Source of the DNA: Eledone cirrhosa
Lineage: Eukaryota
DNA length: 64,000 nt
Direction: 5' to 3'
NCBI GenBank assembly: GCA_964016885.1
Contig: OZ024744.1
Location: 43,772,001 to 43,836,000 of the forward strand
The notes beneath the pieces were generated by a model that was not told the DNA's origin, ran no database searches, and saw nothing but the letters and a program-made list of their open reading frames with translations. The translations under genes and the position numbers were made by a program. Below, piece after piece: positions 45,603 through 64,000 of this stretch (the stretch's first letter is position 1; the number at the start of each line of letters is the position of its first letter).

Positions 45603-46060
45603 GATTTAGAGTAATAAATCAATAAAAATAACAAACCTATATCGGGCAGCAGCCTTTGATACGCAGCGAGACCTAAATCTGTTTCGCAAGAATTAATAAT
45701 TGAAAGCCAACATTCCTGTGCTCGTCAGTAGGTATCCAGAATTTCGTAATTTTTACTTCAAAGTATCTGAGAAGACTGAAAGATTTGCCGATATAAAAGC
45801 ACATGTTGCAGCGCCTAGCGCGTCTCATACTGATGCTGCTAAAAATAGCAGCCGGGTTTATGAGACTAAATTTAGCTGTACGTAAGGAGCCGAGAATATC
45901 ATAGATTGAGTTAGAAACTAAAAATAGATACCTTCTGATGAGCATAGGAATGGTGGCTTTCACTTAATAATCCTTGCGAAACATATTTAGGTTTGTCTGG
46001 CTATCAAAGGCTGTTTCGCGGTATATGTTTGTTATTTTTATTGATTTATTACTTTAAATC
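45603..46060. mobile_element. Inverted-repeat element (~135-bp imperfect arms) with a hammerhead motif in each arm; Penelope pLTR- or retrozyme-like
   Basis: 45603-45737 is the reverse complement of ~45927-46060; cores are CTGATGA...GAAA (+) and CTGACGA...GAAA (-). Confidence 0.75.
45927..46005 (+). ncRNA. Type I hammerhead ribozyme motif
   Basis: CTGATGA (45935), stem II GCATAGGA/TCCTTGC, GAAA (45978), stem III ACA/TGT, GTC triplet (45995-45997); stem I imperfect. Confidence 0.65.
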
Positions 46061-46586: not shown

Positions 46587-46765
46587 AATAATAATATTAT
46601 TTATACTTATATATACACTATATATAATTATAACCAGGTAAGGTTAGTAATTCATTACTACCTTATTTTCAGTAAGAAAAATAGTTCAACGTAAATACAT
46701 CAGATGTTTTACAGAGCAGGAATATAAATTACAGAATAATCAAAACTATGTTCAAAACATTTTAT

Positions 46766-46812
46766 TTCTGACAATCGTTTCTTCCAAACTTTCGTTTGGA
46801 ATCATCGGAGCA
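46766..46812 (-). ncRNA. Minimal type I hammerhead ribozyme motif (one core substitution)
   Basis: Minus: TGCT-CCGATGA-TTCCAAAC-GAAA-GTTTGGAA-GAAA-CGATTG-TC-AGAA; perfect 8-bp stem II with a GNRA loop. Confidence 0.7.
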
Positions 46813-47584
46813 CTAGCAAAGTTTAGACATATAATTAACGTCCTATTCTACAGAACAAACATAAAGATACATAGATATTAATGTTATCATCAACAGTGTC
46901 ATATTTACAGAGTGGAGATGTTGAGGTCAGTAACAGTGGATGTGACAAAGATTACAAAAGAATAATATAACAATTATATAGGAATTAAGGCAGAAAGTTA
47001 CTCGCAAAACGAGGACATTAGCAGTACATATGCAAGCGTATAGAGAGTGCAAATGTGTTAGGCGTGTACAGAATAGCTAGGTAGGAAACAAGCAATTGTA
47101 CTAGGCATATATATTACAGTGTGGCAAAGGTATCACATAATACAATACAGGTATAAAAGCATATTAAGCAGACAGAGATATTTGTGTATTGAAAGTAGTT
47201 TCTATGAAGTTTATAGTGGATGTAGTGTGATAATTGTTCCGGTAATGTTCAAATGTGCATGTGTTGTGGGTATTAATAATAAGGTTTTCCTTTCCATTAC
47301 ATTGGTTATATTTTAATAATGTTTATTAGTAGTTACAACTATGTTTGTATATTGGTGCTATTACAATCTTATCCAGAGTTGAGTTGTTCTGGTGTGATTT
47401 GTCTAACGGTTTAATTTCAGGAAGTGGATTACAGATCTATATTAAGGGGAGCTAATGTGAAAGGGGAGATAATTAGTGATTAATTTGTATATAATAGAAA
47501 AAATGTATAGTTGTTTACAGCTTCAATTAGTTAGATTCCTTGTGCTAATATACAATATATTATGTTTTAAGTGAATCCCTTTTA

Positions 47585-47770
47585 TATAATTATTTCTAGT
47601 TTTGGCACAAGGCCGGCAATTATCCCAGTGTATTACTGGTACTTTATTTTATCGACCCCGTAACTATGAAAGGCAAAGTTAACTCCGGCGGGTTTTGAAC
47701 TCAGATCATAAAGGGCCGTAACTCTTTTCTGCAAAGCATGGCGTCCGACCCTCTACCGATACTGCCAATC
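47585..47770 (-). mobile_element. tRNA-derived SINE
   Basis: Minus strand A box TGGCAGTATCGG and B box GAGTTCAAAACC; inverted homolog of 47846-48030. Confidence 0.8.
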
Positions 47771-47845
47771 CTATATAATGCTATTTATTTATATATTTAA
47801 TTTTAAATACAATCTATTCTCCTATAATACATTAAAGGTCTCATT

Positions 47846-48030
47846 GAATTGGCAGTATCGGTAGAGGGTCGGACGCCATGCTTTTCAGCATAGTTACGTC
47901 GCTTTACGGTCTGAGTTCAAATCCCGTCGAGGTTAACTTTGCTTTTCATCCTTACCGGGTCGATAAAATAAAGTACCAGAAATGAACCGGGTAATTGCTG
48001 GCCTTGTGCCAAAAGTAAAAACAATTATAT
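47846..48030 (+). mobile_element. tRNA-derived SINE (resembles octopod SINEs)
   Basis: A box TGGCAGTATCGG, B box GAGTTCAAATCC, body GGGTCGATAAAATAAAGTACCAG...GGCCTTGTGCCAAAA. Confidence 0.8.
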
Positions 48031-48299: not shown

Positions 48300-49640
48300 G
48301 TGCCGGTGGTAATGTTGGCACATGGAAAAATTTCTGATTTTCTATTTAAGAAGTTTAGTTTAGAATAGATTATAGTGCAGGTCTCTAAAATATAGAGGTT
48401 ACATAATTTATTCGGGGTTTATACGATGCGGCCTAATCTATTACTACCCATTGAAGTGTGTATGGTCTATTTTTAGTTTTCAGATAGTGTATGTAGTTAG
48501 ATAAAGAAGTGGAGTTGGCTAGATTGCGATTTTTGAAAGTGAGATGCGAGTTATATCTCGTCTTAAAGCAGATCGAAGTAGAACCGATATATGTTTTTGA
48601 AGAGATGTTTGTATTGACTGTGCATGAGTAACTTATGTCTTTGATTAAGTAATTTTTACCTAAGGGGCACGTTCTATTTGTTCTACAGTTACAGTTATTC
48701 TGGTTGTTTACTTGCTGGTTAATAGGGTGTGTAGATGCATGGTTGTTAGGGGTAGTATTAGGGTAATGATGATTATCATTCTCCTTGTTATTAATTTCAT
48801 TAGTGCTATTACTATTGTTGCTACTAGAATTGCTCTGGTATTATGATTTAATTAGTTGAAAATAATTATTAATCTTCCTTTTATTACTACTAGCTATATA
48901 GTATATATAGTACGCGATGTTAGAATAAGAGATTTTAATGGTATTTTTATTGATAAGATTATGGTATTTGTGGCCGACTGGGAAGTTTTTTTCTAAGATT
49001 GTGAAGAAAGCCTTAGGCAAGTTGGTAGAGACGTTTAGATTGAAAGGGGGGATTGAAAAATGTATTAGTTCTACTATTTTTGTTTTTTGTAATGTTATTT
49101 GAGGTTTGTTTATATTTGTTTATATTATTATTGGGGTGTTTATTTTGGTGCGAGTTAAATTTGATATTACCCTTCGTACTATAGTTATAGTGGTTAGTAC
49201 TTTTATTATTTTTCTTCATGGCCATATTGTGAGAAATAATGTTGTAACTAGGTGATTTTATGGGTAAAAATTTAATTTCATTTTTATGTCCTGATTTAGC
49301 TAAGGCCTCATTATAGTATTGGGAATCACTGTTAAATATGGTTTCATTATATGATAGAGTAGAAATTCTATTTGATATTCCTTTAGTAATTGAGTTTAAT
49401 ATGGAGTTAGGGTGGTTAGAGTTGATATCCACATAAAGTAGTTTTTCGTTTGGTTTATGAAATGGTGTATATATTTTAGAGTCCAGGCAAAGGGTAGCAT
49501 CAAGAAAGTTAACGTTTTTAGTGTTTTTATCTAAGGTAATACCTAAGTTAATACCTAAGTTATCTAAGGTAATATCTAAGGTAATATCTAAGTAATACCT
49601 AAGTTTTTGAAAAATGTATGTAATTGTTTCCTAGTTCTTT
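48300..49640 (-). pseudogene. Penelope-like element fragment: RT C-terminus, Asn-rich linker, GIY-YIG endonuclease (disrupted)
   Basis: VNFLDATL...FHKPNEKLLYVDINSNHP...YYNEALAKSGH; FNPPF; CNCRTNRTCPLG; YIGST..FKTRYNSH; stops and frameshifts. Confidence 0.88.
49529..49604. repeat. ~12-bp tandem repeat (CTAAGGTAATAT/C) near the 5' end of the Penelope fragment
   Basis: About six imperfect copies visible. Confidence 0.8.
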
Positions 49641-49834
49641 ATGTATGTATATATATATAAATGATATTAATAAATGGAAACTATCTTTATAAACCCATAT
49701 TTATTTTATTATATATATTTTTTAAGGGTACCAACATTTTGGTACGCACTCATCAGATAAAATACAAAAATTCTTTTACAGATAGTGACATAATATTCAA
49801 AACTAGAACTCACGTTTTGAGTTCTGTTTGAATA

Positions 49835-49982
<148 letters not shown>

Positions 49983-49989
<7 letters not shown>

Positions 49990-50719
49990 GTGTATTTTGC
50001 AATACACTGTATGCTTCATAAAAAGCATTTTGAAGACCATACGTTATTGTTTTAAAATAGTGACAATGTCACTTCTTTAAATTTTCAGCAAACAGTGGAG
50101 ATAAACTGACAGAGCTCTGTTTCGTACTTTTTGGTACTTATCAATGTTCACTACCCCTCCTGTTTACCGAAAATTATGTGTGTTGGATTCTTATAGAATT
50201 CCAGTAATAATCAGGAACTGATTATACAGAGCGGTCGCCGGTCCAGTAGAAATTGAAAATTAGAATTGGTGCTCTGAAATAGCGATATATATATGAATGT
50301 ATATATAGTGTATTTTGCAATACACTGTATACTTAATTAAAAGCATTTTGAAGACCAGATGCTATTGTTTTAAAATAGTGACAATGTCACTTATTTAAAT
50401 TTTCAGCAAACAGGGGACCGGCGACCGCTCTGTATAATCAATTATTGATTATTACTGGAATTCTATAAGAATCCAACACACATAATTTTCGGCAAACAGG
50501 AGGGGTAGTGAACTTTGATAAGTACCAACAAGTACAAAACAGAGGTCTGTCAGTTTATCTCCCCTGTTTGATGAAAATTTAAATAAGTGACATTGTCACT
50601 ATTTTAAAACAATAACGTATGGTCTTCAAAATGCTTTTAATTAAGCATACAGTGTATTGCAAAATACACTATATATACAATCATATATATATTGCTATTT
50701 CAGAGCACCAATTCTAATA

Positions 50720-50722
<3 letters not shown>
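49983..50722. mobile_element. Retrozyme-like element copy 1: ~1.35 tandem copies of a 318-bp unit followed by an inverted copy
   Basis: TGTATTTTGCAATACACTG at 49991 and 50309; 50415-50722 is the reverse complement of the unit; degenerate hammerheads at 50104-50148 (-) and 50511-50555 (+); (TA)n on both sides. Confidence 0.8.
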
Positions 50723-50793
<71 letters not shown>

Positions 50794-51009
50794 AATGGAA
50801 GTACAGCATAATCGAAGCTCGAGCCGCAGCTAAGCCAACAAATGCAATCAGAAAGTACAGCCAAGCACTCGATAAGGTATAAAACCTTAGAGTAATAACA
50901 TTACGTTTAAAGTGCTTTGGAAATGGAAGATAGCGACCGGTAATTTAGCCGCGGGGACTGTAGCAACGAAAGAACTGACTCGCGAGAAAAAATATACACA
51001 CACACACAT

Positions 51010-51340
51010 ATATATATGTCCTACCTTTAGCAAGGTAGGACTTAAGGTAGAGATGGAACCCAATAGAAAAATAGTGAATTTCCTGGACACCACCCTCAAC
51101 CTCAACACCAAGCTACACCACCCATATCATAAACCCAATGAGAAGCTGGTGTATATCAACGCTGAGTCTAATCACCCTACATCTATAGTTAAGGCCGTAG
51201 TTAAGAGTGTCTCTGACAGGATCTCTAACTTGTCGGCTAATAAAGAGATATTCAATAGTAACGCTGATTACTATAACTCAGCGCTACCTAAGGCGTCCCA
51301 CAGCCATAGGATCAGCTATAACCCTAAGGGACATGATCAA
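51010..51340 (+). pseudogene. Penelope-like RT C-terminal fragment
   Basis: KIVNFLDTTLNL...PYHKPNEKLVYINAESNHP...RISNLS...YYNSAL in ORF 50912-51361; homologous to 49013-49520 (-). Confidence 0.85.
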
Positions 51341-51972
51341 GATGACCCAATCGTTATCTAATGTTTAAAACATAAATAGCTGCGATATATGCACCATATC
51401 AATCAAAAACGATATGAGAATTGAATACCATACTAAAGCGCCAGTAAGCTTGCTAAGAATCTGCAGGTAGAAATTTTAATAAATACAACATTTGGCTTGG
51501 GTAAACTTTAAGATGTTCTTTCATTGTAGGTTTCTTTTCTCAGCCAGTACGTTAAAGAAAATTGATAGTTACAACAATAAAGGTTGAACAGAGAACACAT
51601 TTTTTTAACAAACTTTACAATAATTTGTACAACCATAAATTACATTGTTAGAGCCTCAGAGTATACAATATTTTTTGTTCGGACCTCGAGAGCAAAGATG
51701 AAGAGATTGTTTGGCAAGCTCACTCTAGAGCATCCTACATACAATTGATCTTGTTTTTCCCAGATGAAGACCAGCCACTTTTAGGGTTTGACCCTGAGCT
51801 TTGTTGATGGTAATCGCGAAGCTTAGTCTCTCTGATCTTGCGGCCAGGCTAGGACTTTTTGGGTGGCATATCGGCAGTAACAATGACGATAAGCCGTCTG
51901 TGCTTTCGTGAAATAAATACGTTTGTTTATATTTTGTTTTTGTGTATGCAAAAATATCCGTACACGAATATA

Positions 51973-52018
<46 letters not shown>

Positions 52019-52334
52019 TAACAGATTACAGTTTAAACAAAGAATCGGTGCTTTCACCCTTAACAGGATTGTAGTGGCTGAGATGGTCGCTTGGCAACTA
52101 GCAGTTGCCTCCCCTTAACAACCCTTCAGAGAGCGGAGGCAAAAATACATCCCGACACAGACGCAGGTTCACTCACTCTCTTTGGACCGCGGACATGAAC
52201 AGACGTGGAAAGATTCGCTCCTCAAAATATTGACGTTGTAGGAAATTTACTAATTTATCGCATTTAATAAAATGATTGTTAGATTTGTTTGTTCATTTAT
52301 TTATTCAACAAAGAGAAACATCCCTTTCCTTTAT

Positions 52335-52370
52335 TGGCGACCCTGACGATAAAGAATGAAAACGCAGCCT
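52335..52370 (+). promoter_or_regulatory. tRNA-Trp PBS plus ACGCAGCCT box
   Basis: TGGCGACCCTGACGAT...AACGCAGCCT, 1 nt after the LTR. Confidence 0.8.
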
Positions 52371-52902
52371 ATTTGAATTCGCCATTCGTTTTAACGGCAA
52401 TGTGGAATGGCTTAACATTTGGAATGTTCGAATCACTTAGCGTAAGTCCATAAAATTCATAATATTCCATTTGTTGAAGCACGCATACAGACAAACACAA
52501 AAATACAACACAAAAAAAAAAAAATAAAAAAAAAAAAAAGGATTTCTCTGGATATAGAATTTTGCTTTCAACATTTGTGGAAATTACAAATGGAGACTCA
52601 GATATTTTGTTTTCCCGCGTTCAGCTTGTCTTCTCCAATCCCAGCCATCGGATTGGCTGCATCGTGCCACATGACGGCTTCTTCATCACGGACACATTTT
52701 TAAATCAGCCATCTTGGATTTTCTTACCATTAATTTTCATAGAAAATGATTTTTTTTATTATTAAAATTTTCTTTAGAATATTTTTTTTAAAGAAAAAAA
52801 ATTAGCAGTATTTCAAAACGGCTACCACCAATTATCAGCAATCAGCAGCAACACCTGGCTAAATATTAACCAACACCAAAAATTCATCAAATACGTGGCA
52901 CC

Positions 52903-53426
52903 ATGAGTCAACATCATTTGCCGTCCTTCGCAGGCGACATCAAGTTGTGGTTTGCGCAGCTGGAATGTTTCTTTGAATTAACCAAGACAAAAGAACAGCA
53001 TAAGCTGAAGGTCCACCGCCAAGTGCGCAAAGGATATTGGTTAATAGTTTAGAGAAGGAGTCGTTGGAGCAACTTGCCGCGTCCGCGGATAAAATACTTG
53101 AGGTGGACTCGAACAGCAATCAGCATAATCCTTATGTGGCTTCAGCTTGCGTCCCCCCACGCAGTTCTTCTGTGGCCGACAGCAAACTGTTGGAGTTGAT
53201 TGAAGCTCTCACCAAAAAGGTAGAAGATTTGACTGTACATCACAGAGAGCCTTCTCAACGTTTGAGGTATCGTTCGCCGCCGTCCTCTATTCATCGCCAG
53301 CACTACGACGCAGACAACAATAATTCTTCGTTGTGTTGGTATCATGCTAACTTCGGCAGTAGGGCACAACGTTGTCGCACGCCCTGTAATTACAAGAGAT
53401 CGGGAAACGCAAAGCTGAGGCACTAG
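52903..53426 (+). pseudogene. gag: gag, internally deleted and frameshifted near 53012
   Basis: N-terminal LPSFAGDIKLWFAQLECFF is joined out of frame to LEQLAASADKILE...LCWYHANFGSRAQRCRTPC. Confidence 0.85.
53402..53408 (+). promoter_or_regulatory. -1 ribosomal frameshift slippery heptamer G_GGA_AAC
   Basis: X_XXY_YYZ pattern in the gag frame; the -1 frame continues into protease-like [10 protein letters not shown]. Confidence 0.8.
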
Positions 53427-56400
53427 GGGCGGCTAGTGAACTCTGGGAAAACCGACCGAACCGCCATCTTTTCGTATACGACCTGCGGTCAAAAAAATTG
53501 TCGATACTGGCGCGTCGCTGAGTATTTGGCCAGTCAGTTATCTCAAAAAAAGCCCAGCTGAAACAAATATAAATCTACGAGCAGTCAACCACACGGCCAT
53601 TCGAACGTACGGGCAAATTTCGCTTCCTCTTCGGTTAAAAAATTTGCGGCGTGATTTGAAGTGGAAGTTTACTATCGCCGACTTGCCATACGCCATTTTG
53701 GGAGCGGATTTTCTCCACCATTTTTCCTTGTTGGTGGACATTCGCAGACAACGCCTTTTTTATGCTGAAACAGGCCTTTCTTTCGAGGGTTCAGAGCCGG
53801 ACGTCGCCACTGTCAACCCTTCCTTTTACTTGGCTGAAGTGGGCAACCAGTATCAAAGCCTGTTACATTCATTCCCTCAGTTGACGCAGGGAAAGTTACG
53901 AATAACTAGCCCGGATCATGCGATTGAACACTTTATATCCACTACAGATCCACCTGTTTTCTCACGTCCTCGAAGATTATCTACAGAGAAGTTGAAAGCT
54001 GCACGGTCTGAATTCGACCACATGCTGGAATTGGGAATAATTCGGCGTTCCACAAGTCCTTGGGCATCGCCTCTACATATGGTACTTAAATCTTCTGGTG
54101 ATTGGAGACCGACGGGTGACTACCGACGCTTAAACGCGATTACTGTGCCTGACCGTTATCTAATCCCGCATTTGCAGGATTTTGCATCGTCATTGCAAGC
54201 TTGCAGAATCTTTTCTAAGCTTGATTTGATTCGTGCTTATAATCAAATTCCGGTTAACAAGGAGGATATTCCGAAGACTGCTATTGCCACTCCTTTTGGA
54301 GCATTCGAGTTCCTCACTATGCCTTTCGGCCTTAGAAATGCTGCAAGTACCTTCCAACGATTTATGGATGATATTACTCGGGGCCTGGATTTTGTGTACA
54401 CGTATATCAATGATGTACTGATTTCTAGTTCTCCCCCTGAGCAGCATTCAAAGCATCTGGATACCCTATTTCGTCGTTTACAGAGATATAATGTCCGTAT
54501 TAATGCTTCCAAGTGTGTTTTCGGCTCGACTTCACTAACATTTTTAGGCCATCTGATTGACGCCGATGGTATTCGACCTCTTCCTGAGAAGGTTAAGGCA
54601 GTATCGGATTTGCCTCCGCCAAGTTCACTGCCACAATTGCGTCAATTCCTGGGCCTTGTACATTTTTATAGGCGATTCGTACCTGGTTATTCCAACTTTC
54701 TGTTCTCGTTGACAGACATTTTTAAGGGTTGCCGGCTTAAGAATATGGACATTTCCTTAAATAAAACGCAGCTTGAGGATTTTAAAAAAGTGAAAAAGGC
54801 GTTAGCGAACGCGTCTTTGCTCGCCCACCCAGTACCCAACGCCGAGCTATCGCTATGTGTTGATGCTTCGGATAGCGCTGTGGGCGCAGTCTTACAGCAG
54901 AAGTGTGATGGGGTACAGCAACCACTCGAGTTCTTTTCGAGGAAGTTAAAGCCTGCCGAAACTCGCTATAGCACCTTTGGAAGGGAGCTATTAGCAATTT
55001 ATTTATCAGTGAAACATTTTGCTCATGTACTTGAAGGTAGAACATTCACCATTTTCACTGATCATAAACCTTTGACGTTTGCTCTTCGAACTAAAGCAGA
55101 CAAATACTCGCCCAGAGAGACGAGACATCTGGACTTCATCTCACAGTTCACGAACGACATTCAACATATTCCGGGTTCTTTGAATACAGCGGCCGATGCG
55201 CTGTCTCGCCTGCCGATCGCATCGATTTCGTCTTCCGAGGAGATAGGTTTACATCGAATGGCAGCTGCCCAACCCACTCTCGAATCGTTGGATGTTACAT
55301 CGCCAGAGTTTGTACAGTGCAAACTGAAATACATTCCGATCTCAACTGCTGACGGACAAATACTGTGTGATGTTTCGTTGGACTCACCACGACCTCTAGT
55401 CCCAGTGGAACATCGACGAACTGCGTTTCTCGCTTTACATGGCATTTCTCACCCAGGAGTATCAGCCTCAGTAAAACTCATAACAGCCAGATTTTTCTGG
55501 CCTGAGATGAGACGTGACATTGCTGCTTGGTGTCGTTCCTGTGTTGCTTGCCAACAAGCGAAAGTTCATAGACATGTTAAGGCTCCTCTCGGAACCTTCA
55601 CCTGCCCCGATGCAAGATTTCGTCACATTCATGTGGACATCGTCGGCCCGTGGCCGGTTAGTCGTGGCTTTTCGTATCTTTTGACGATTGTTGACCGTTT
55701 TTCGCATTGGGCTGAAGCCATCCCTATAACAGATATCACCGCTGAAACCACAGCCCGTACTCTCGTATCTTCATGGATCGCTCGTTTCGGTGTACCAACC
55801 ACCATAACAACGGATCGTGGTCGTCAATTTGAGTCTAACCTCTTCCGAGAACTAACCCAAATCCTGGGGGCTACTCGAATAAGAACCACGGCTTACCACC
55901 CAGCCTCAAACGGAATGGTGGAAAGATTCCACAGGCACTCAAAGCCTCCTTAAGGGCTTCCATGGACTCTTCACGTTGGAGCGAGTACCTACCTATTGTG
56001 TTGTTGGGTATTCGGTCGACGGTAAAGGTGGACCTTGGGTTCTCCTCTGCCGAATTAGTTTATAGTACTCCTCTGGCGTTACCGGGGAAAATGCTGGCTC
56101 CTTTTGACCTGACTTCGCAGGACCCCGCTTCCTACGTGTCCCGGCTTCACTCTTATTTCAAGGATCTACCACCGATGGGCACTAGGAAGCAGACTGTAAA
56201 AACTGCCGTCCCAAGGGATATTGCCTTGTGGACACATGTGTTCGTTAGAGACGACGCCGTGAGACCCCCTCTTCAACGGCCGTACTCAGGACCCTATCGT
56301 GTGCTTGTTCGCACAGACAAACATTTCACACTGGACATTCGGGGTTCCAGGGAAACGGTTTCCGTTGATCGTCTCAAACGAGCAAACCTGGACAATGACA

Positions 56401-56546
56401 CAATGACACTTGAAACTCAAATGCCCCCTTCTTTTTCTTTGCCACATAGGCCTATTTCTCCCCCCCCCCCATCAACACACAGAACTACGACCCGTTCTGG
56501 GCGAAAGGTGCATTGGCCCCGTAAGCTATGCAGTAATATAAACTGA
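53402..56546 (+). pseudogene. pol: pol (protease, RT, RNase H, integrase) with frameshifts near 53495 and 55937 and a YIDD>YIND change
   Basis: VDTGAS (53500), [30 protein letters not shown] (54403), [32 protein letters not shown]. Confidence 0.95.
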
Positions 56547-57240
56547 ATTGTATTCTTTTTTTTCTTCCAATTGTTTTTGCTGTATATTGCATTTTGTTAC
56601 TTTTTGATTCTTGACTGCCTACGGCAGTGTCAATATATTATATTTTTCGTAACATTACGACTATTGTCAATTCTGACACAGTCCATTTTTTTTAGTGCAT
56701 TTTTATAACTATGCTACATATGGCATTTTTATTGCCTAGCAAAACATTTTTTTCTTGTTTATCGCATTTGGGGCCCCTTTATTGCGAAGAGTGTTATCTT
56801 TTCATGCATTTTGCATCTTTTACTGTACGTTTTTTTTTCTGTGTTAATGCTTGCAGACATGAACCTATTTATTATTTTTTTTTTAATTTGTTGATACATT
56901 CTTCTACATTTTGTAAACTACCTTCGCTTCATTGTTAACGGTTTTTCGACAAAAAATCTGCTACGAGGTGAATGTAGTGGCTGAGATGGTCGCTTGGCAA
57001 CTAGCAGTTGCCTCCCCTTAACAACACTTCAGAGAGCGGAGGCAAAAATACATCCGGACACAGACGCAGGTTCACTCACTCTCTTTGGACCGCGGACATG
57101 AACAGACGTGGAAAGATTCGCTCTTCAAAATATTGACGTTGTAGGAAATTTACTAAATTATCGCATTTAATAAAATGATTGTTAGATTTGATTGTTCATT
57201 TATTTATTCAACAAAGAGAAACATCCCTTTCCTTTAGGAT

Positions 57241-57567
57241 CTCTGAAACTAAAAAAAATCAATCTGTGAACGCAGAAGTAAATATTTCTAAAAACGTTGC
57301 AACCGGAAGAAAACAGGAAGATGATACTTTGGTTCGTGAAGACGTTAGGAATGTCGTATAACCGGAAGTGTTGACATTTGAACATTTTAAAGAAGTGAAT
57401 ATTTAAATAATGTCTTTAATCTTTTAACAAAATTGAGTACACAAAAATACCCTCACTTTCTAACTTGGAAAAAGTTACATCTATGGTGCAAATTTGGAGC
57501 CGTTTGGTCCAGCCGCTTGGCGGAAAGTTTGTTACTTACATACGGCCGTCAGCTTTATAGTATAGAT
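57241..57567 (+). repeat. Interspersed repeat interrupted by the Gypsy element (5' part 52013-52069); possibly Helitron-like non-autonomous
   Basis: The joined flanks match the reverse complement of ~59895-60055; the end AAATTTGGAGCCGTTTGGTCCAGCCG...CTTTATAGTATAGAT resembles Helitron-derived repeats (class uncertain). Confidence 0.55.
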
Positions 57568-58008
57568 GCTTAATTAAAAACGTTTTGAAGACCTTGCGCT
57601 ATTATTTTAAAGTAGTGACTATGTCACTTATTTTTTCAACAAACAAAGGGAGATAAGCTGACAGATCTGTTTCATACTGTTCGTAATCATCAGAGCTTAA
57701 CACTCGCCGATGCTTGTTGAAAATTATAGATGTTGGATTCTTATAGAATTCCAGTAGTAATCAGGAACTGATTATACAGAGCGATTGCCGGTCCAGCAAA
57801 AATTGAAAATTAGAATGGGGCTCTGAAATAGCGATGTATACATGAATGTATATATAGTATATACAGTTTATCTCCCTTTGTTTGTTGAAAAAAGAAGTAA
57901 CATAGTTTTCAAAATGTTTTTAATTAAGCATACAGTATATTGCCAAACATACTATATATAATTTCATGTATACATCGCTATTTCAGAGCACCATTCTAAT
58001 TTTCAATA
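57568..58008. mobile_element. Retrozyme-like element copy 2 (permuted near-full unit plus inverted partial copy)
   Basis: Homologous to 49983-50722 (e.g. GTTGGATTCTTATAGAATTCCAGTA.TAATCAGGAACTGATTATACAGAGCG); inversion junction ~57860-57864. Confidence 0.8.
57655..57698 (-). ncRNA. Minimal type I hammerhead ribozyme with palindromic stem III
   Basis: Minus: AAGCT-CTGATGA-TTACGAACAGTAT-GAAA-CAGATCTG-TC-AGCTT; perfect stem I, intact core, mismatched base of stem II. Confidence 0.8.
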
Positions 58009-58439
58009 CAATATATATATTTTTATATATATATATATATATAGTTTTGCGAGGTTTTTTTATATGAAATCGTGTGTCGAAACAAATATTGTTATACTTG
58101 GGGAGGGTCATATTTGTGTAATATTGCCAGAATTAATAAATATATAGACAGACTGAATAAAAATGGCGTAGACATACAACACAACAGGAGGAAAATATAA
58201 CACCACTGACGATGTTGCAGATGTGCAACGAAAGATTCATGATAAACTATATATATGTGTTTGTGTCTATATTGTATCTGTATTATTTTTGACCGTCGGT
58301 CAGTCAATGGCAACATTGAGGACCGAGTAAGTTAGATTACCGATATAAAAGACAGCGAGAAGCGAAAACCAACCAAACAGTGAGTGTGTTCTGTTATTAA
58401 TTCTGGCAATATTACACAAATATGACCCTCCCCAATTAT

Positions 58440-58554
<115 letters not shown>

Positions 58555-58669
58555 TATAAAAATTTCAGGTTATTAATAATGTAGTGATAATATATCGTCA
58601 CGTTAGAGATGAACAGCGTAGGTGTAGGTTTGCTCAACGAGTATAAATTATATTCCGGAGAAAATATAG

Positions 58670-59019
58670 AAAAGATGAATATAAAATGAAAGTGCTTTTA
58701 TAAAGGAATTTATTAGGTATTGACATATGTTTCTGTTACAGACGGAATACCTATGTATCGCTGCTTGCGTAATCATATAATGTTAGCAAGTATTCGATAG
58801 CAAATGTATAATCAGTTGTCACTTCTTCAGAGATATTGGATAAATTTATCCAATATCTCTGAAGAAGTGACAACTGATTATGCATTTGCTATCGAATACT
58901 TGCTAACATTATATGATTACGCAAGCAGCGATACATAGGTATTCCGTCTGTTACAGAAACATATGTCAATACCTAATAAATTCTTTTATAAAAGCACTTT
59001 CATTTTATATTCATCTTTT
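58670..59019. repeat. 350-bp near-perfect spacerless palindrome
   Basis: Centre GGATAAA|TTTATCC at 58844/58845; 175-bp arms with ~3 mismatches. Confidence 0.95.
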
Positions 59020-59029
59020 ATATATATAT

Positions 59030-59664: not shown

Positions 59665-60057
59665 TATAAGAACCGTGGTTTGGTCTTTGCGCGCAATTGT
59701 TCTCCACGCTCCACATATGACGTATTATCTTCGTTTTTTCCGTTCATTGCCAGAAAACGTCTCTATGAACCACCTAAGAGAACATTAGCCTACGACTTCT
59801 TTATACCATAAACGTGGTTCTGTCTTTCCGCGTAATTGTTTTTCACCGTACCTATTAATGACGTATTATATTCGTTTTTCCCGTTCTTTGCCAGGGAACG
59901 TTTCCACGAACCAAAGTATCGTCTTCCTGTCTTCCTCCGGTTGCAACGTATTTTGAAATATTCACTTCTGCGTTCACAGATTGACTTTGTTAGTTTCAGA
60001 AGATCCCGTTAAGGGTGAAAGCAGAGATTCTTTGCTTAAACTTTAATCTGCTTAAAC

Positions 60058-60058
<1 letters not shown>
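59665..60058 (-). repeat. Second, uninterrupted copy of the repeat hosting the Gypsy insertion, with an internal ~140-bp tandem duplication
   Basis: Reverse complement CTTTCACCCTTAACGGGATCTTCTGAAACTAAC; CGTGGTT...TGACGTATTAT...GAACC occurs twice. Confidence 0.75.
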
Positions 60059-60112
<54 letters not shown>

Positions 60113-63791: not shown

Positions 63792-64000
63792 GTAAATATC
63801 ACACTTACATGATATATCTATAGCTCACACACCCCTATCTTCACGTACGTAACACTACCGGGGATTATGTGGAACTACATCGTCTACACAGCCCATATAT
63901 ATATATCCTGCAGCGATGTGTATTGTCTTTAAAACGTAGAAATATCCGAGACCCCCAGTAGACAACTGATGAGGGAGCCCTACCCCCTCCCTGTTCTTGC

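What the first reader, a model, noticed from the sequence alone, without database searches (positions are those of the whole stretch)
49983..58008. A ~318-nt hammerhead-bearing retrozyme-like family present twice, circularly permuted, beside Penelope fragments
Seen: two homologous non-coding elements (49983-50722, 57568-58008). Copy 1 has a longer-than-unit tandem of a 318-bp monomer; copy 2 starts at a different point of the same monomer. Each monomer has one type I hammerhead with a palindromic stem III (ACAGAGCTCTGT; ACAGATCTGT), and both copies end in an inverted arm stopping at the same place (GAGCACC..TTCTAAT.TTCA) against (TA)n. Known: animal non-LTR retrozymes are short tandem monomers with type I hammerheads that yield circular RNAs, and Penelope-like elements carry minimal hammerheads and insert with inverted termini. 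Inference: a non-autonomous family copied from a circular or multimeric RNA by Penelope RT; I do not recognise this family.
Basis: partly seen in the sequence, partly recalled or inferred. Interest (0 to 1): 0.82.

Follow-up and report, generated by a model that had tools for sequence, protein, structure and literature searches.

The report
Hammerhead mini-Penelope (animal retrozyme) family
These are two decayed copies of a 318-base, protein-free repeat that carries a predicted self-cutting hammerhead RNA and has the end structures typical of Penelope jumping genes, so it is likely a new member of the known animal 'retrozyme' class that borrows Penelope enzymes to move.

Summary
The feature is real: a multi-copy, non-coding 318-bp unit (copies 81.5% alike) with one extended type I hammerhead per unit. 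Copy 1 has the compensatory U3-A8 core and copy 2 the canonical C3-G8 core. Each of the three hammerheads carries a damaging change.

Read in hammerhead sense, both insertions show the published Penelope-like (PLE) anatomy: a partial tandem, a head-to-head inverted arm and a fixed 3' end in (TA)n. Copy 1 has a 31-nt tail on one arm only.

'Circularly permuted' is not supported. The 3' end is fixed and the 5' ends vary. Copy 1's two tandem units differ at three clustered sites, which fits a linear multi-unit RNA better than one circle copied 1.4 times. Three of five inversion junctions lie within 10 nt of the predicted cleavage site, hinting that self-cleavage sets the template's 5' end.

The neighbouring Penelope fragments share no convincing non-coding sequence with the unit, so no partner was found. 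No RNA was examined; cleavage and circles are untested.

Verdict: new member of a known kind (non-autonomous PLE / animal non-LTR retrozyme), with a modest mechanistic hint.

The parts
49838..49989 (.). (TA)n tract at the left end of copy 1 (insertion target); overlaps the unit's own TA-rich stretch
   Evidence: homology to the unit runs to about 49967
49967..50253 (-). Copy 1 downstream unit, lacking the 31-nt tail (short 3' end, in the TA-rich stretch)
50078..50177 (-). Type I hammerhead, copy 1 left arm: U3-A8 core 50144-50138, predicted cleavage between 50108 and 50107, stem I extended by a 13-bp distal helix; private A.A mismatch at 50145
   Evidence: family reads restore the pair in 605 of 674 reads
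50169..50269 (-). Best-conserved segment (91% between copies), spanning and following the fixed 3' end point; holds two short hairpins; inferred binding site for the PLE protein
   Evidence: (D13); role inferred from PMC11167929
50254..50417 (-). Copy 1 upstream 5'-truncated unit (pLTR-like partial tandem, 164 nt). Begins 9 nt after the cleavage site and contains the 31-nt tail 50284-50254
50415..50723 (+). Copy 1 inverted arm, 309 of 318 nt of a unit, head-to-head with the left arm through a 3-nt GGA overlap; hammerhead core 50515-50521 (U3-A8, G12A); ends with the tail 50693-50723
50723..50791 (.). (TA)n tract at the tailed 3' end of copy 1
57566..57803 (-). Copy 2 downstream unit; 3' part missing, abuts another repeat at 57566
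57631..57727 (-). Type I hammerhead, copy 2: canonical CUGAUGA core 57693-57687, C17 at 57660; first pair of stem II lost (U.U)
57804..57862 (-). Copy 2 upstream 5'-truncated unit (59 nt, includes the tail)
57864..58007 (+). Copy 2 inverted arm: starts at the hammerhead cleavage site (C17 or +1), has a 27-nt internal deletion, ends with the tail
58011..58043 (.). (TA)n tract at the tailed 3' end of copy 2
48418..49552 (-). Neighbouring decayed PLE ORF fragments (end of RT, linker, GIY-YIG region); context only
   Evidence: tblastn with P0002, P0003, P0005; PLE label is my reading of the motifs
51023..51328 (+). Second neighbouring PLE RT fragment; context only

Best explanation
The two elements are decayed insertions of a multi-copy, protein-free 318-bp unit with a predicted type I hammerhead, and they were likely copied into (TA)n tracts by the reverse transcriptase and endonuclease of an unidentified Penelope-like element. 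SHOWN: the unit, its hammerhead fold with compensatory changes, the partial tandem, the head-to-head inverted arm, the fixed 3' end, the optional 31-nt tail and the (TA)n flanks. INFERRED: (1) a tandem source locus is transcribed through more than one unit; (2) the upstream hammerhead often cleaves and gives the template its 5' end, while the downstream one stays uncut; (3) the PLE protein binds the conserved segment after the unit junction, nicks AT-rich DNA on both strands and starts reverse transcription at one of two internal sites 31 nt apart, 141 and 172 nt after the cleavage site; (4) the two cDNAs grow inwards, stop early or at the cleaved end, and are joined by microhomology, giving the palindrome. 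Circles may also form but are not needed to explain these copies.
For: Hammerhead: 83 of 87 cells paired (95.4%) against 34-46% when slid, and three pairs changed on both sides, including the 3:8 tertiary pair. Family reads show the same stem I swap: 50147 T>C in 608 of 670 reads; 50105 A>G in 355 of 805, with a further 339 of 819 written as a G insertion there. Two G.U pairs become Watson-Crick in 549 of 620 and 541 of 618 reads (run X8). Non-coding: longest ATG ORF 32 aa, 33% G+C. Family: 4092 of 17,142,217 contigs of run X1 lie on the unit; several with 16-26 differences bridge the junction at 50254 (records 6, 7, 8), and end-to-start joints 50347>50030 occur in X1 and X8. The short distance from junction to hammerhead is kept in two copies 81.5% alike, so no ORF belongs there. 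Fixed 3' end: loose ends before 50258-50259 in 68 X1 contigs, mostly TA-rich. Published PLE anatomy matches: partial tandem, inverted 5'-truncated copy and 30-40-bp tail (PMC8557442); 31-bp optional tail and head-to-head inversion (PMC3846280); tail = distance between two internal RT starts, both strands nicked (PMC11167929). Cleavage-site starts: 2 of 4 arm starts in the window (P 0.007) and 3 of 5 inversion junctions with reads added (P 0.003). Linear multimer: the left unit and right arm share three changes (50040, 50042, 50044) that the upstream partial unit lacks, and that unit carries the family allele at 50044 (C in 270 of 296 reads).
Against: No autonomous partner was found: the PLE flanks in the window score 27-48 against the unit, versus shuffle maxima of 31-44 and 346 for copy 2 (the one value above its null, 48 vs 44, was against a mononucleotide shuffle and was not inspected). 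No window hammerhead is intact. The covariation rests on two subfamilies, and 18-38 of 500 shuffles reach the observed values. The cleavage-site window was chosen after seeing the data and n is 5; 2 of the 3 opposite-strand joints in the reads (50256/50293, 50144/50222) do not touch it. Gene conversion between the inverted arms could also explain the shared changes. For the anole PLE, hammerhead cleavage was dispensable in vitro and no RNA reads ended at the cut (PMC11167929). 347 loose-end rows and 63 variant rows were not shown, so an ORF-bearing flank in a minority of copies is not excluded.
Confidence: 0.72

Rival explanations
1. Same family, but the template is a ligated 318-nt circle (the classical retrozyme model and the first reader's): RT primes at a fixed site and runs round more than once.
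For: Copy 1's right arm covers 309 of 318 nt and crosses the cleavage site. One period folds strongly as a circle: -76.3 kcal/mol, z -5.7, 0 of 100 shuffles. Related retrozymes in coral, mussel and axolotl form circles (PMC7229834). One X1 contig joins 50274 to 50108, the C17 end.
Against: A circle has no end at the cleavage site, yet 2 of 4 arms start there. Copy 1's tandem units differ at three clustered sites, one of which is the family allele in the upstream unit.
Confidence: 0.15
2. The units are only pLTR stubs (5'-truncated 3' ends) or deletion products of an autonomous PLE, not a self-propagating mini-element.
For: All insertion signatures are those of ordinary PLEs. Read depth is highest just upstream of the 3' end. 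An earlier scan note reached this reading for another genome (e1-7808612, unchecked).
Against: The junction-to-hammerhead stretch of about 110 nt has no ORF in either copy (81.5% alike) and is bridged by diverged contigs. The hammerhead is canonical (4-bp stem II, long stem I, 4-bp stem III), unlike the minimal PLE type (PMC4209133).
Confidence: 0.1
3. A fold-back artefact of assembly, or a MITE-like DNA transposon with long terminal inverted repeats.
For: Six palindromic features lie within 45.6-59.1 kb; the flanks are TA.
Against: Arms are only 93-95% identical and one has a 27-nt deletion. Ends are asymmetric by 31 nt and centres differ between copies. Opposite-strand joints with other coordinates occur in two public runs.
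Confidence: 0.03

Closest known systems
Animal non-LTR retrozymes (Cervera and de la Pena 2020, PMC7229834; Li, Clavereau and Pollet 2026, bioRxiv 10.64898/2026.07.22.740005)
   Same: Short AT-rich non-coding unit (318 bp; published range 150-450), canonical type I hammerhead with palindromic stem III, tandem joints, strongly self-paired, PLEs in the same genome.
   Different: These copies are dispersed partial tandems with inverted arms and a tail, not long arrays. No two consecutive complete hammerheads in the window. Circles and cleavage untested. U3-A8 core in one subfamily.
EN+ Penelope-like element insertions with pLTR, inversion and tail (PMC3846280, PMC8557442, PMC11167929)
   Same: Partial tandem, head-to-head inverted 5'-truncated copy, optional 31-nt tail, AT-rich target, hammerhead upstream of the fixed 3' end.
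   Different: No RT or GIY-YIG ORF; whole unit is 318 bp; hammerhead is extended rather than minimal.
Non-autonomous PLEs such as MRC1 of Chlamydomonas (PMC8557442)
   Same: ORF-less, pLTR-forming, head-to-tail insertions.
   Different: Chlamys-type elements lack canonical hammerheads and share their 3' ends with a known partner; no partner is known here.
U3-A8 hammerhead variant of Schistosoma Cercyon PLEs (PMC4209133)
   Same: Same compensatory swap of the 3:8 core pair.
   Different: There it is in minimal hammerheads; here it is in an extended one, and a sister copy has C3-G8.

Membership tests
Type I hammerhead ribozyme | Core (N3 U G A N N8 A with 3:8 pair, GAAA, UH) and three helices, stem I open | tested here: met
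   each copy has one private defect (A.A in stem I; G12A; U.U in stem II)
Type I hammerhead ribozyme | Rfam family match at gathering score | tested here: not met
   none; HH9 22.2 and 20 bits against 52
Type I hammerhead ribozyme | Self-cleavage | not testable with these tools
   needs in vitro transcription
Animal non-LTR retrozyme | Non-coding unit of 150-450 bp, G+C under 50%, canonical type I hammerhead | tested here: met
   318 bp, 33% G+C, longest ORF 32 aa
Animal non-LTR retrozyme | Head-to-tail tandem copies | tested here: met
   about 1.4 units in copy 1; end-to-start joints in X1 and X8
Animal non-LTR retrozyme | Two consecutive units with complete hammerheads ('active' in Li et al. 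2026) | tested here: inconclusive
   absent from the window; no laid contig spans a whole unit; no whole genome held
Animal non-LTR retrozyme | Expressed as linear and circular monomer RNA | not testable with these tools
   no RNA run could be laid
PLE-type insertion | Partial tandem forming a pLTR | tested here: met
   164-nt and 59-nt upstream partial units
PLE-type insertion | Inverted 5'-truncated copy, head-to-head | tested here: met
   both copies
PLE-type insertion | Optional 30-40-bp tail at one end | tested here: met
   31 nt on copy 1's right arm, absent from its left arm
PLE-type insertion | AT-rich or (TA)n target | tested here: met
   3 of 4 outer ends abut (TA)n; TA-rich loose ends
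Autonomous PLE | RT plus GIY-YIG ORF between the pLTRs | tested here: not met
   none in the unit
Non-autonomous PLE | Terminal sequence shared with an autonomous partner | tested here: inconclusive
   no convincing match to the two PLE remnants in the window; rest of genome not available
Minimal PLE hammerhead (min-HHR) | Helix II of 7-8 bp, helix I of 4-5 bp, little or no helix III | tested here: not met
   helix II 4 bp, helix I 7 + 13 bp, helix III 4 bp against PMC4209133

The most novel reading that the evidence does not exclude
This family preserves in DNA direct evidence that an animal retrozyme is moved in trans by PLE enzymes through internal initiation at two fixed sites, and that hammerhead self-cleavage sets the 5' end of a linear multi-unit template in vivo. 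That would run against both the rolling-circle model for retrozymes and the in vitro result that PLE hammerhead cleavage is dispensable.
Probability: 0.35. Interest if true: 0.6.

Novelty: new member of a known kind. Interest (0 to 1): 0.36.

Why it matters
How animal retrozymes move, and what the hammerhead does in the Penelope cycle, are open questions: the 2020 paper proposes circles copied by PLE RT, the 2026 preprint says the mechanism remains to be worked out, and the 2024 in vitro study found cleavage dispensable. A short, abundant unit with a fixed 3' end, a 31-nt tail and 5' ends that appear to cluster at the ribozyme cut would let both questions be tested by counting junctions in one assembly. 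The family itself is an ordinary addition to a known class.

Tried and rejected
- No whole genome is held, so copy number, partner and junction counts could not be done genome-wide.
- Sequencing-run search: no RNA holder listed; this says nothing on expression.
- Pattern scans found 0 loci in metagenome contigs (two patterns) and 0 in viral contigs.
- All six pile-ups of read ends in run X8 (50080, 50197, 50200, 50254, 50264, 50338) fall on AATT sites, so I read them as restriction cuts, not element ends. The 377 reads with mixed loose ends behind 50254 (agreement 0.35) may be ligation chimeras and were not used.
- Joints 50105>50215 and 50106>50206 were left out of the cleavage-site count: their middle is unknown and a common variant breaks alignments there.
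- The 544 reads with (TA)n before 50285 may include chance microsatellite matches and were not counted.
- My strict hammerhead scan missed copy 1 because of its private defects, so its null for copy 1 is void; the relaxed scan found it, but also gave 4 other hits in AT-rich sequence at scores 8-11, so the scan is not specific alone.
- One search used a structure string out of register with the alignment and is void; one search is the corrected count.
- Pfam named none of the 4 PLE fragments (one unrelated hit below cut-off).
- Rejected: free circular permutation; the neighbouring PLE remnants as attached ORF or partner; MITE; assembly fold-back.
- Earlier-findings searches by place and by sequence returned nothing.
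Full report
OBSERVATION. The two elements are real and homologous: 81.5% over 298 columns. Copy 1 has a period of 318 (49967-50099 against 50285-50417, 92%) and an inverted arm at 50415-50723. Copy 2 has a forward part at 57566-57862 and an inverted arm at 57864-58007. Rfam finds nothing at gathering score and only weak Hammerhead_HH9 matches at two of the three sites (E 0.16, 0.88). A motif-and-helix scan places type I hammerheads at 50144(-), 50515(+) and 57693(-); 0, 1 and 0 of 300 shuffles reach those scores. The unit is 33% G+C with no ORF over 32 aa.

THE HAMMERHEAD. It is the extended type: 7-bp proximal and 13-bp distal stem I, 4-bp stem II, 4-bp palindromic stem III. On the three copies 83 of 87 cells pair, against 34-46% when the partners are slid. 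Three pairs change on both sides, including the core 3:8 pair: copy 1 has U3-A8, copy 2 has C3-G8. With three rows this is suggestive only (18-38 of 500 shuffles reach it). The U3-A8 swap is already reported in Schistosoma PLEs (PMC4209133). Each window copy has one private defect. Reads of other copies restore the stem I pair (605 of 674), show the same compensatory stem I swap, and turn two G.U pairs into Watson-Crick pairs (run X8; RAD reads come from a limited set of loci and are not copy counts). Positions 50139 and 50144 were not among the 40 variant rows shown (63 hidden), so the family-wide share of each core is unknown. Loose ends behind 50144 in 24 X1 contigs suggest U3 is common, and one X4 contig shows the canonical start. 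Cleavage itself is untested.

ANATOMY. Read in hammerhead sense, both insertions are head-to-head: 5' ends meet in the middle and 3' ends point out. Each left arm is a partial tandem, a 5'-truncated unit (164 nt; 59 nt) followed by the next unit. Both right arms end within 2 nt of unit position 50254, next to (TA)n. Copy 1's left arm ends about 31 nt earlier, in the unit's own TA-rich stretch. This matches the published PLE pattern: partial tandem, inverted truncated copy and 30-40-bp tail (PMC8557442); a 31-bp tail on one inverted pLTR and head-to-head orientation (PMC3846280). In the anole PLE the tail is the distance between two internal RT start sites, and both target strands are nicked (PMC11167929). 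The apparent permutation comes from a fixed 3' end with variable 5' truncation. Copy 2's left end abuts another repeat and is probably clipped (inference).

FAMILY. laid 4 runs on one period (50030-50347): 4092 of 17,142,217 contigs in X1, 7279 of 12,467,656 reads in X8 (97% only partly), 28 of 8,254,286 in X4 and 7 of 18,734,193 in X7. X1 may not be independent of the window's source. Diverged contigs bridge the junction at 50254, end-to-start joints occur in X1 and X8, and 68 X1 contigs leave the unit at 50258-50259 into mostly TA-rich sequence. So the ORF-less 318-bp unit is a family with a fixed 3' end, not a one-off deletion.

PARTNER. The two neighbouring ORF remnants (48418-49552 minus; 51023-51328 plus) match RT-plus-endonuclease proteins at 30-53%; I call them PLE from recalled motifs. 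Their non-coding flanks give no convincing match to the unit, and the left one has a different hammerhead-like box near 46790. They are neighbours in a shared TA-rich landing zone, not an attached ORF.

TEMPLATE. Copy 2's right arm starts at the cleavage site and copy 1's left arm 9 nt after it (2 of 4 arm starts; P 0.007). One of three opposite-strand joints in the reads (50102/50251) also does, giving 3 of 5 junctions (P 0.003; window chosen after the fact). In copy 1 the left unit and right arm share three clustered changes that the upstream partial unit lacks, and at 50044 the upstream unit has the family allele (270 of 296 reads). One circle copied 1.4 times would give identical units; a linear transcript of a tandem locus, cut at its upstream hammerhead, fits directly. 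Gene conversion between the arms is an untested alternative. Against a needed cleavage step: the anole PLE did not need it in vitro, and no RNA reads ended at its cut. In favour of a circle: copy 1's right arm spans 309 of 318 nt across the cut, and one period folds at z -5.7.

COMPARISON AND NOVELTY. It works like a non-autonomous PLE and meets the sequence features of animal non-LTR retrozymes. Expression, circularity and an active dimer were not shown. That retrozymes are non-autonomous PLE derivatives is already argued in print. I found no description of this family, nor of retrozyme 5' ends mapping to the cut, in six searches of an open-access library; Repbase and Dfam were not available, so the family may be catalogued there.

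PAPERS SEEN. bioRxiv 10.64898/2026.07.22.740005: parts 1-3 of 5 (main text through discussion; supplements closed, and their retrozyme tables could bear on prior description). PMC7229834: parts 2-4 of 6. PMC4209133: outline and parts 1-2 of 4. PMC11167929: parts 1-2 of 4. PMC8557442 and PMC3846280: matched passages only. No supplements were read. Other papers: search listings only.

VERDICT. New member of a known kind; interest 0.36. The most novel reading (cleavage-defined linear template, moved in trans by internal initiation) has probability about 0.35 and interest 0.6 if true.

Noticed in passing
records 13 (X4) and 18 (X7); shares window 50212-50308: A 340-nt high-depth contig whose start and end overlap in X4 (period about 310 nt) shares about 83% with the tail and junction region. 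The same flank occurs in 2558 X8 DNA reads at 0.99 agreement. It looks like a young, homogeneous sister tandem family; whether it has a hammerhead was not seen.
   Followed up: partly
window 45603-46060: Another head-to-head inverted element (134-nt arms, 86%) with CTGA(T/C)GA...GAAA boxes and a long stem II in both arms; unrelated in sequence to the 318-bp unit; its fold is not significant against shuffles.
   Followed up: partly
window 58043-58447: Small inverted element (54-nt arms, 98%) between (TA)n tracts, with a CTGACGA-stem-GAAA box at 58206-58234 and about 43 extra nt on one arm only; probably another PLE-type stub.
   Followed up: partly
window 58664-59025: Perfect palindrome of 181-nt arms (98%) with no spacer, next to TA-rich sequence; no intact hammerhead core.
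   Followed up: partly
window 47584-48030: Two tRNA-like SINE copies head-to-head inside the PLE remnant. They resemble SINEs I recall from octopus genomes (recall, untested).
   Followed up: no
window 52070-57240: LTR retrotransposon of Gypsy type (label from recalled motifs) with 98% identical LTRs and a GGAT target duplication, inserted in a repeat that also occurs uninterrupted near 59897-60106.
   Followed up: partly
window 46765-46830 and 49715-49770 (minus strand); 63955-64000: Decayed hammerhead-like boxes on both sides of the left PLE remnant, and a CTGATGA box at the window's end.
   Followed up: partly
window 60-45568: A 45-kb satellite of 28-bp units (about 1625 copies) with signs of higher-order repeats fills most of the window.
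   Followed up: no
window 51725-52012: ORF remnant with a motif like the end of a PIF1/Helitron helicase (recall).
   Followed up: no
window 50250-50256 (minus strand): The unit junction reads TCAATTT, an initiator-like word, with a TA-rich hairpin about 31-47 nt upstream; a possible promoter at the same point as the fixed 3' end. The TATA-like run is not kept in copy 2.
   Followed up: no
run X8, behind 50254: 377 reads leave the unit here into mixed sequence: either a fixed 5' boundary at the unit junction or restriction-ligation chimeras at an AATT site; unresolved.
   Followed up: partly
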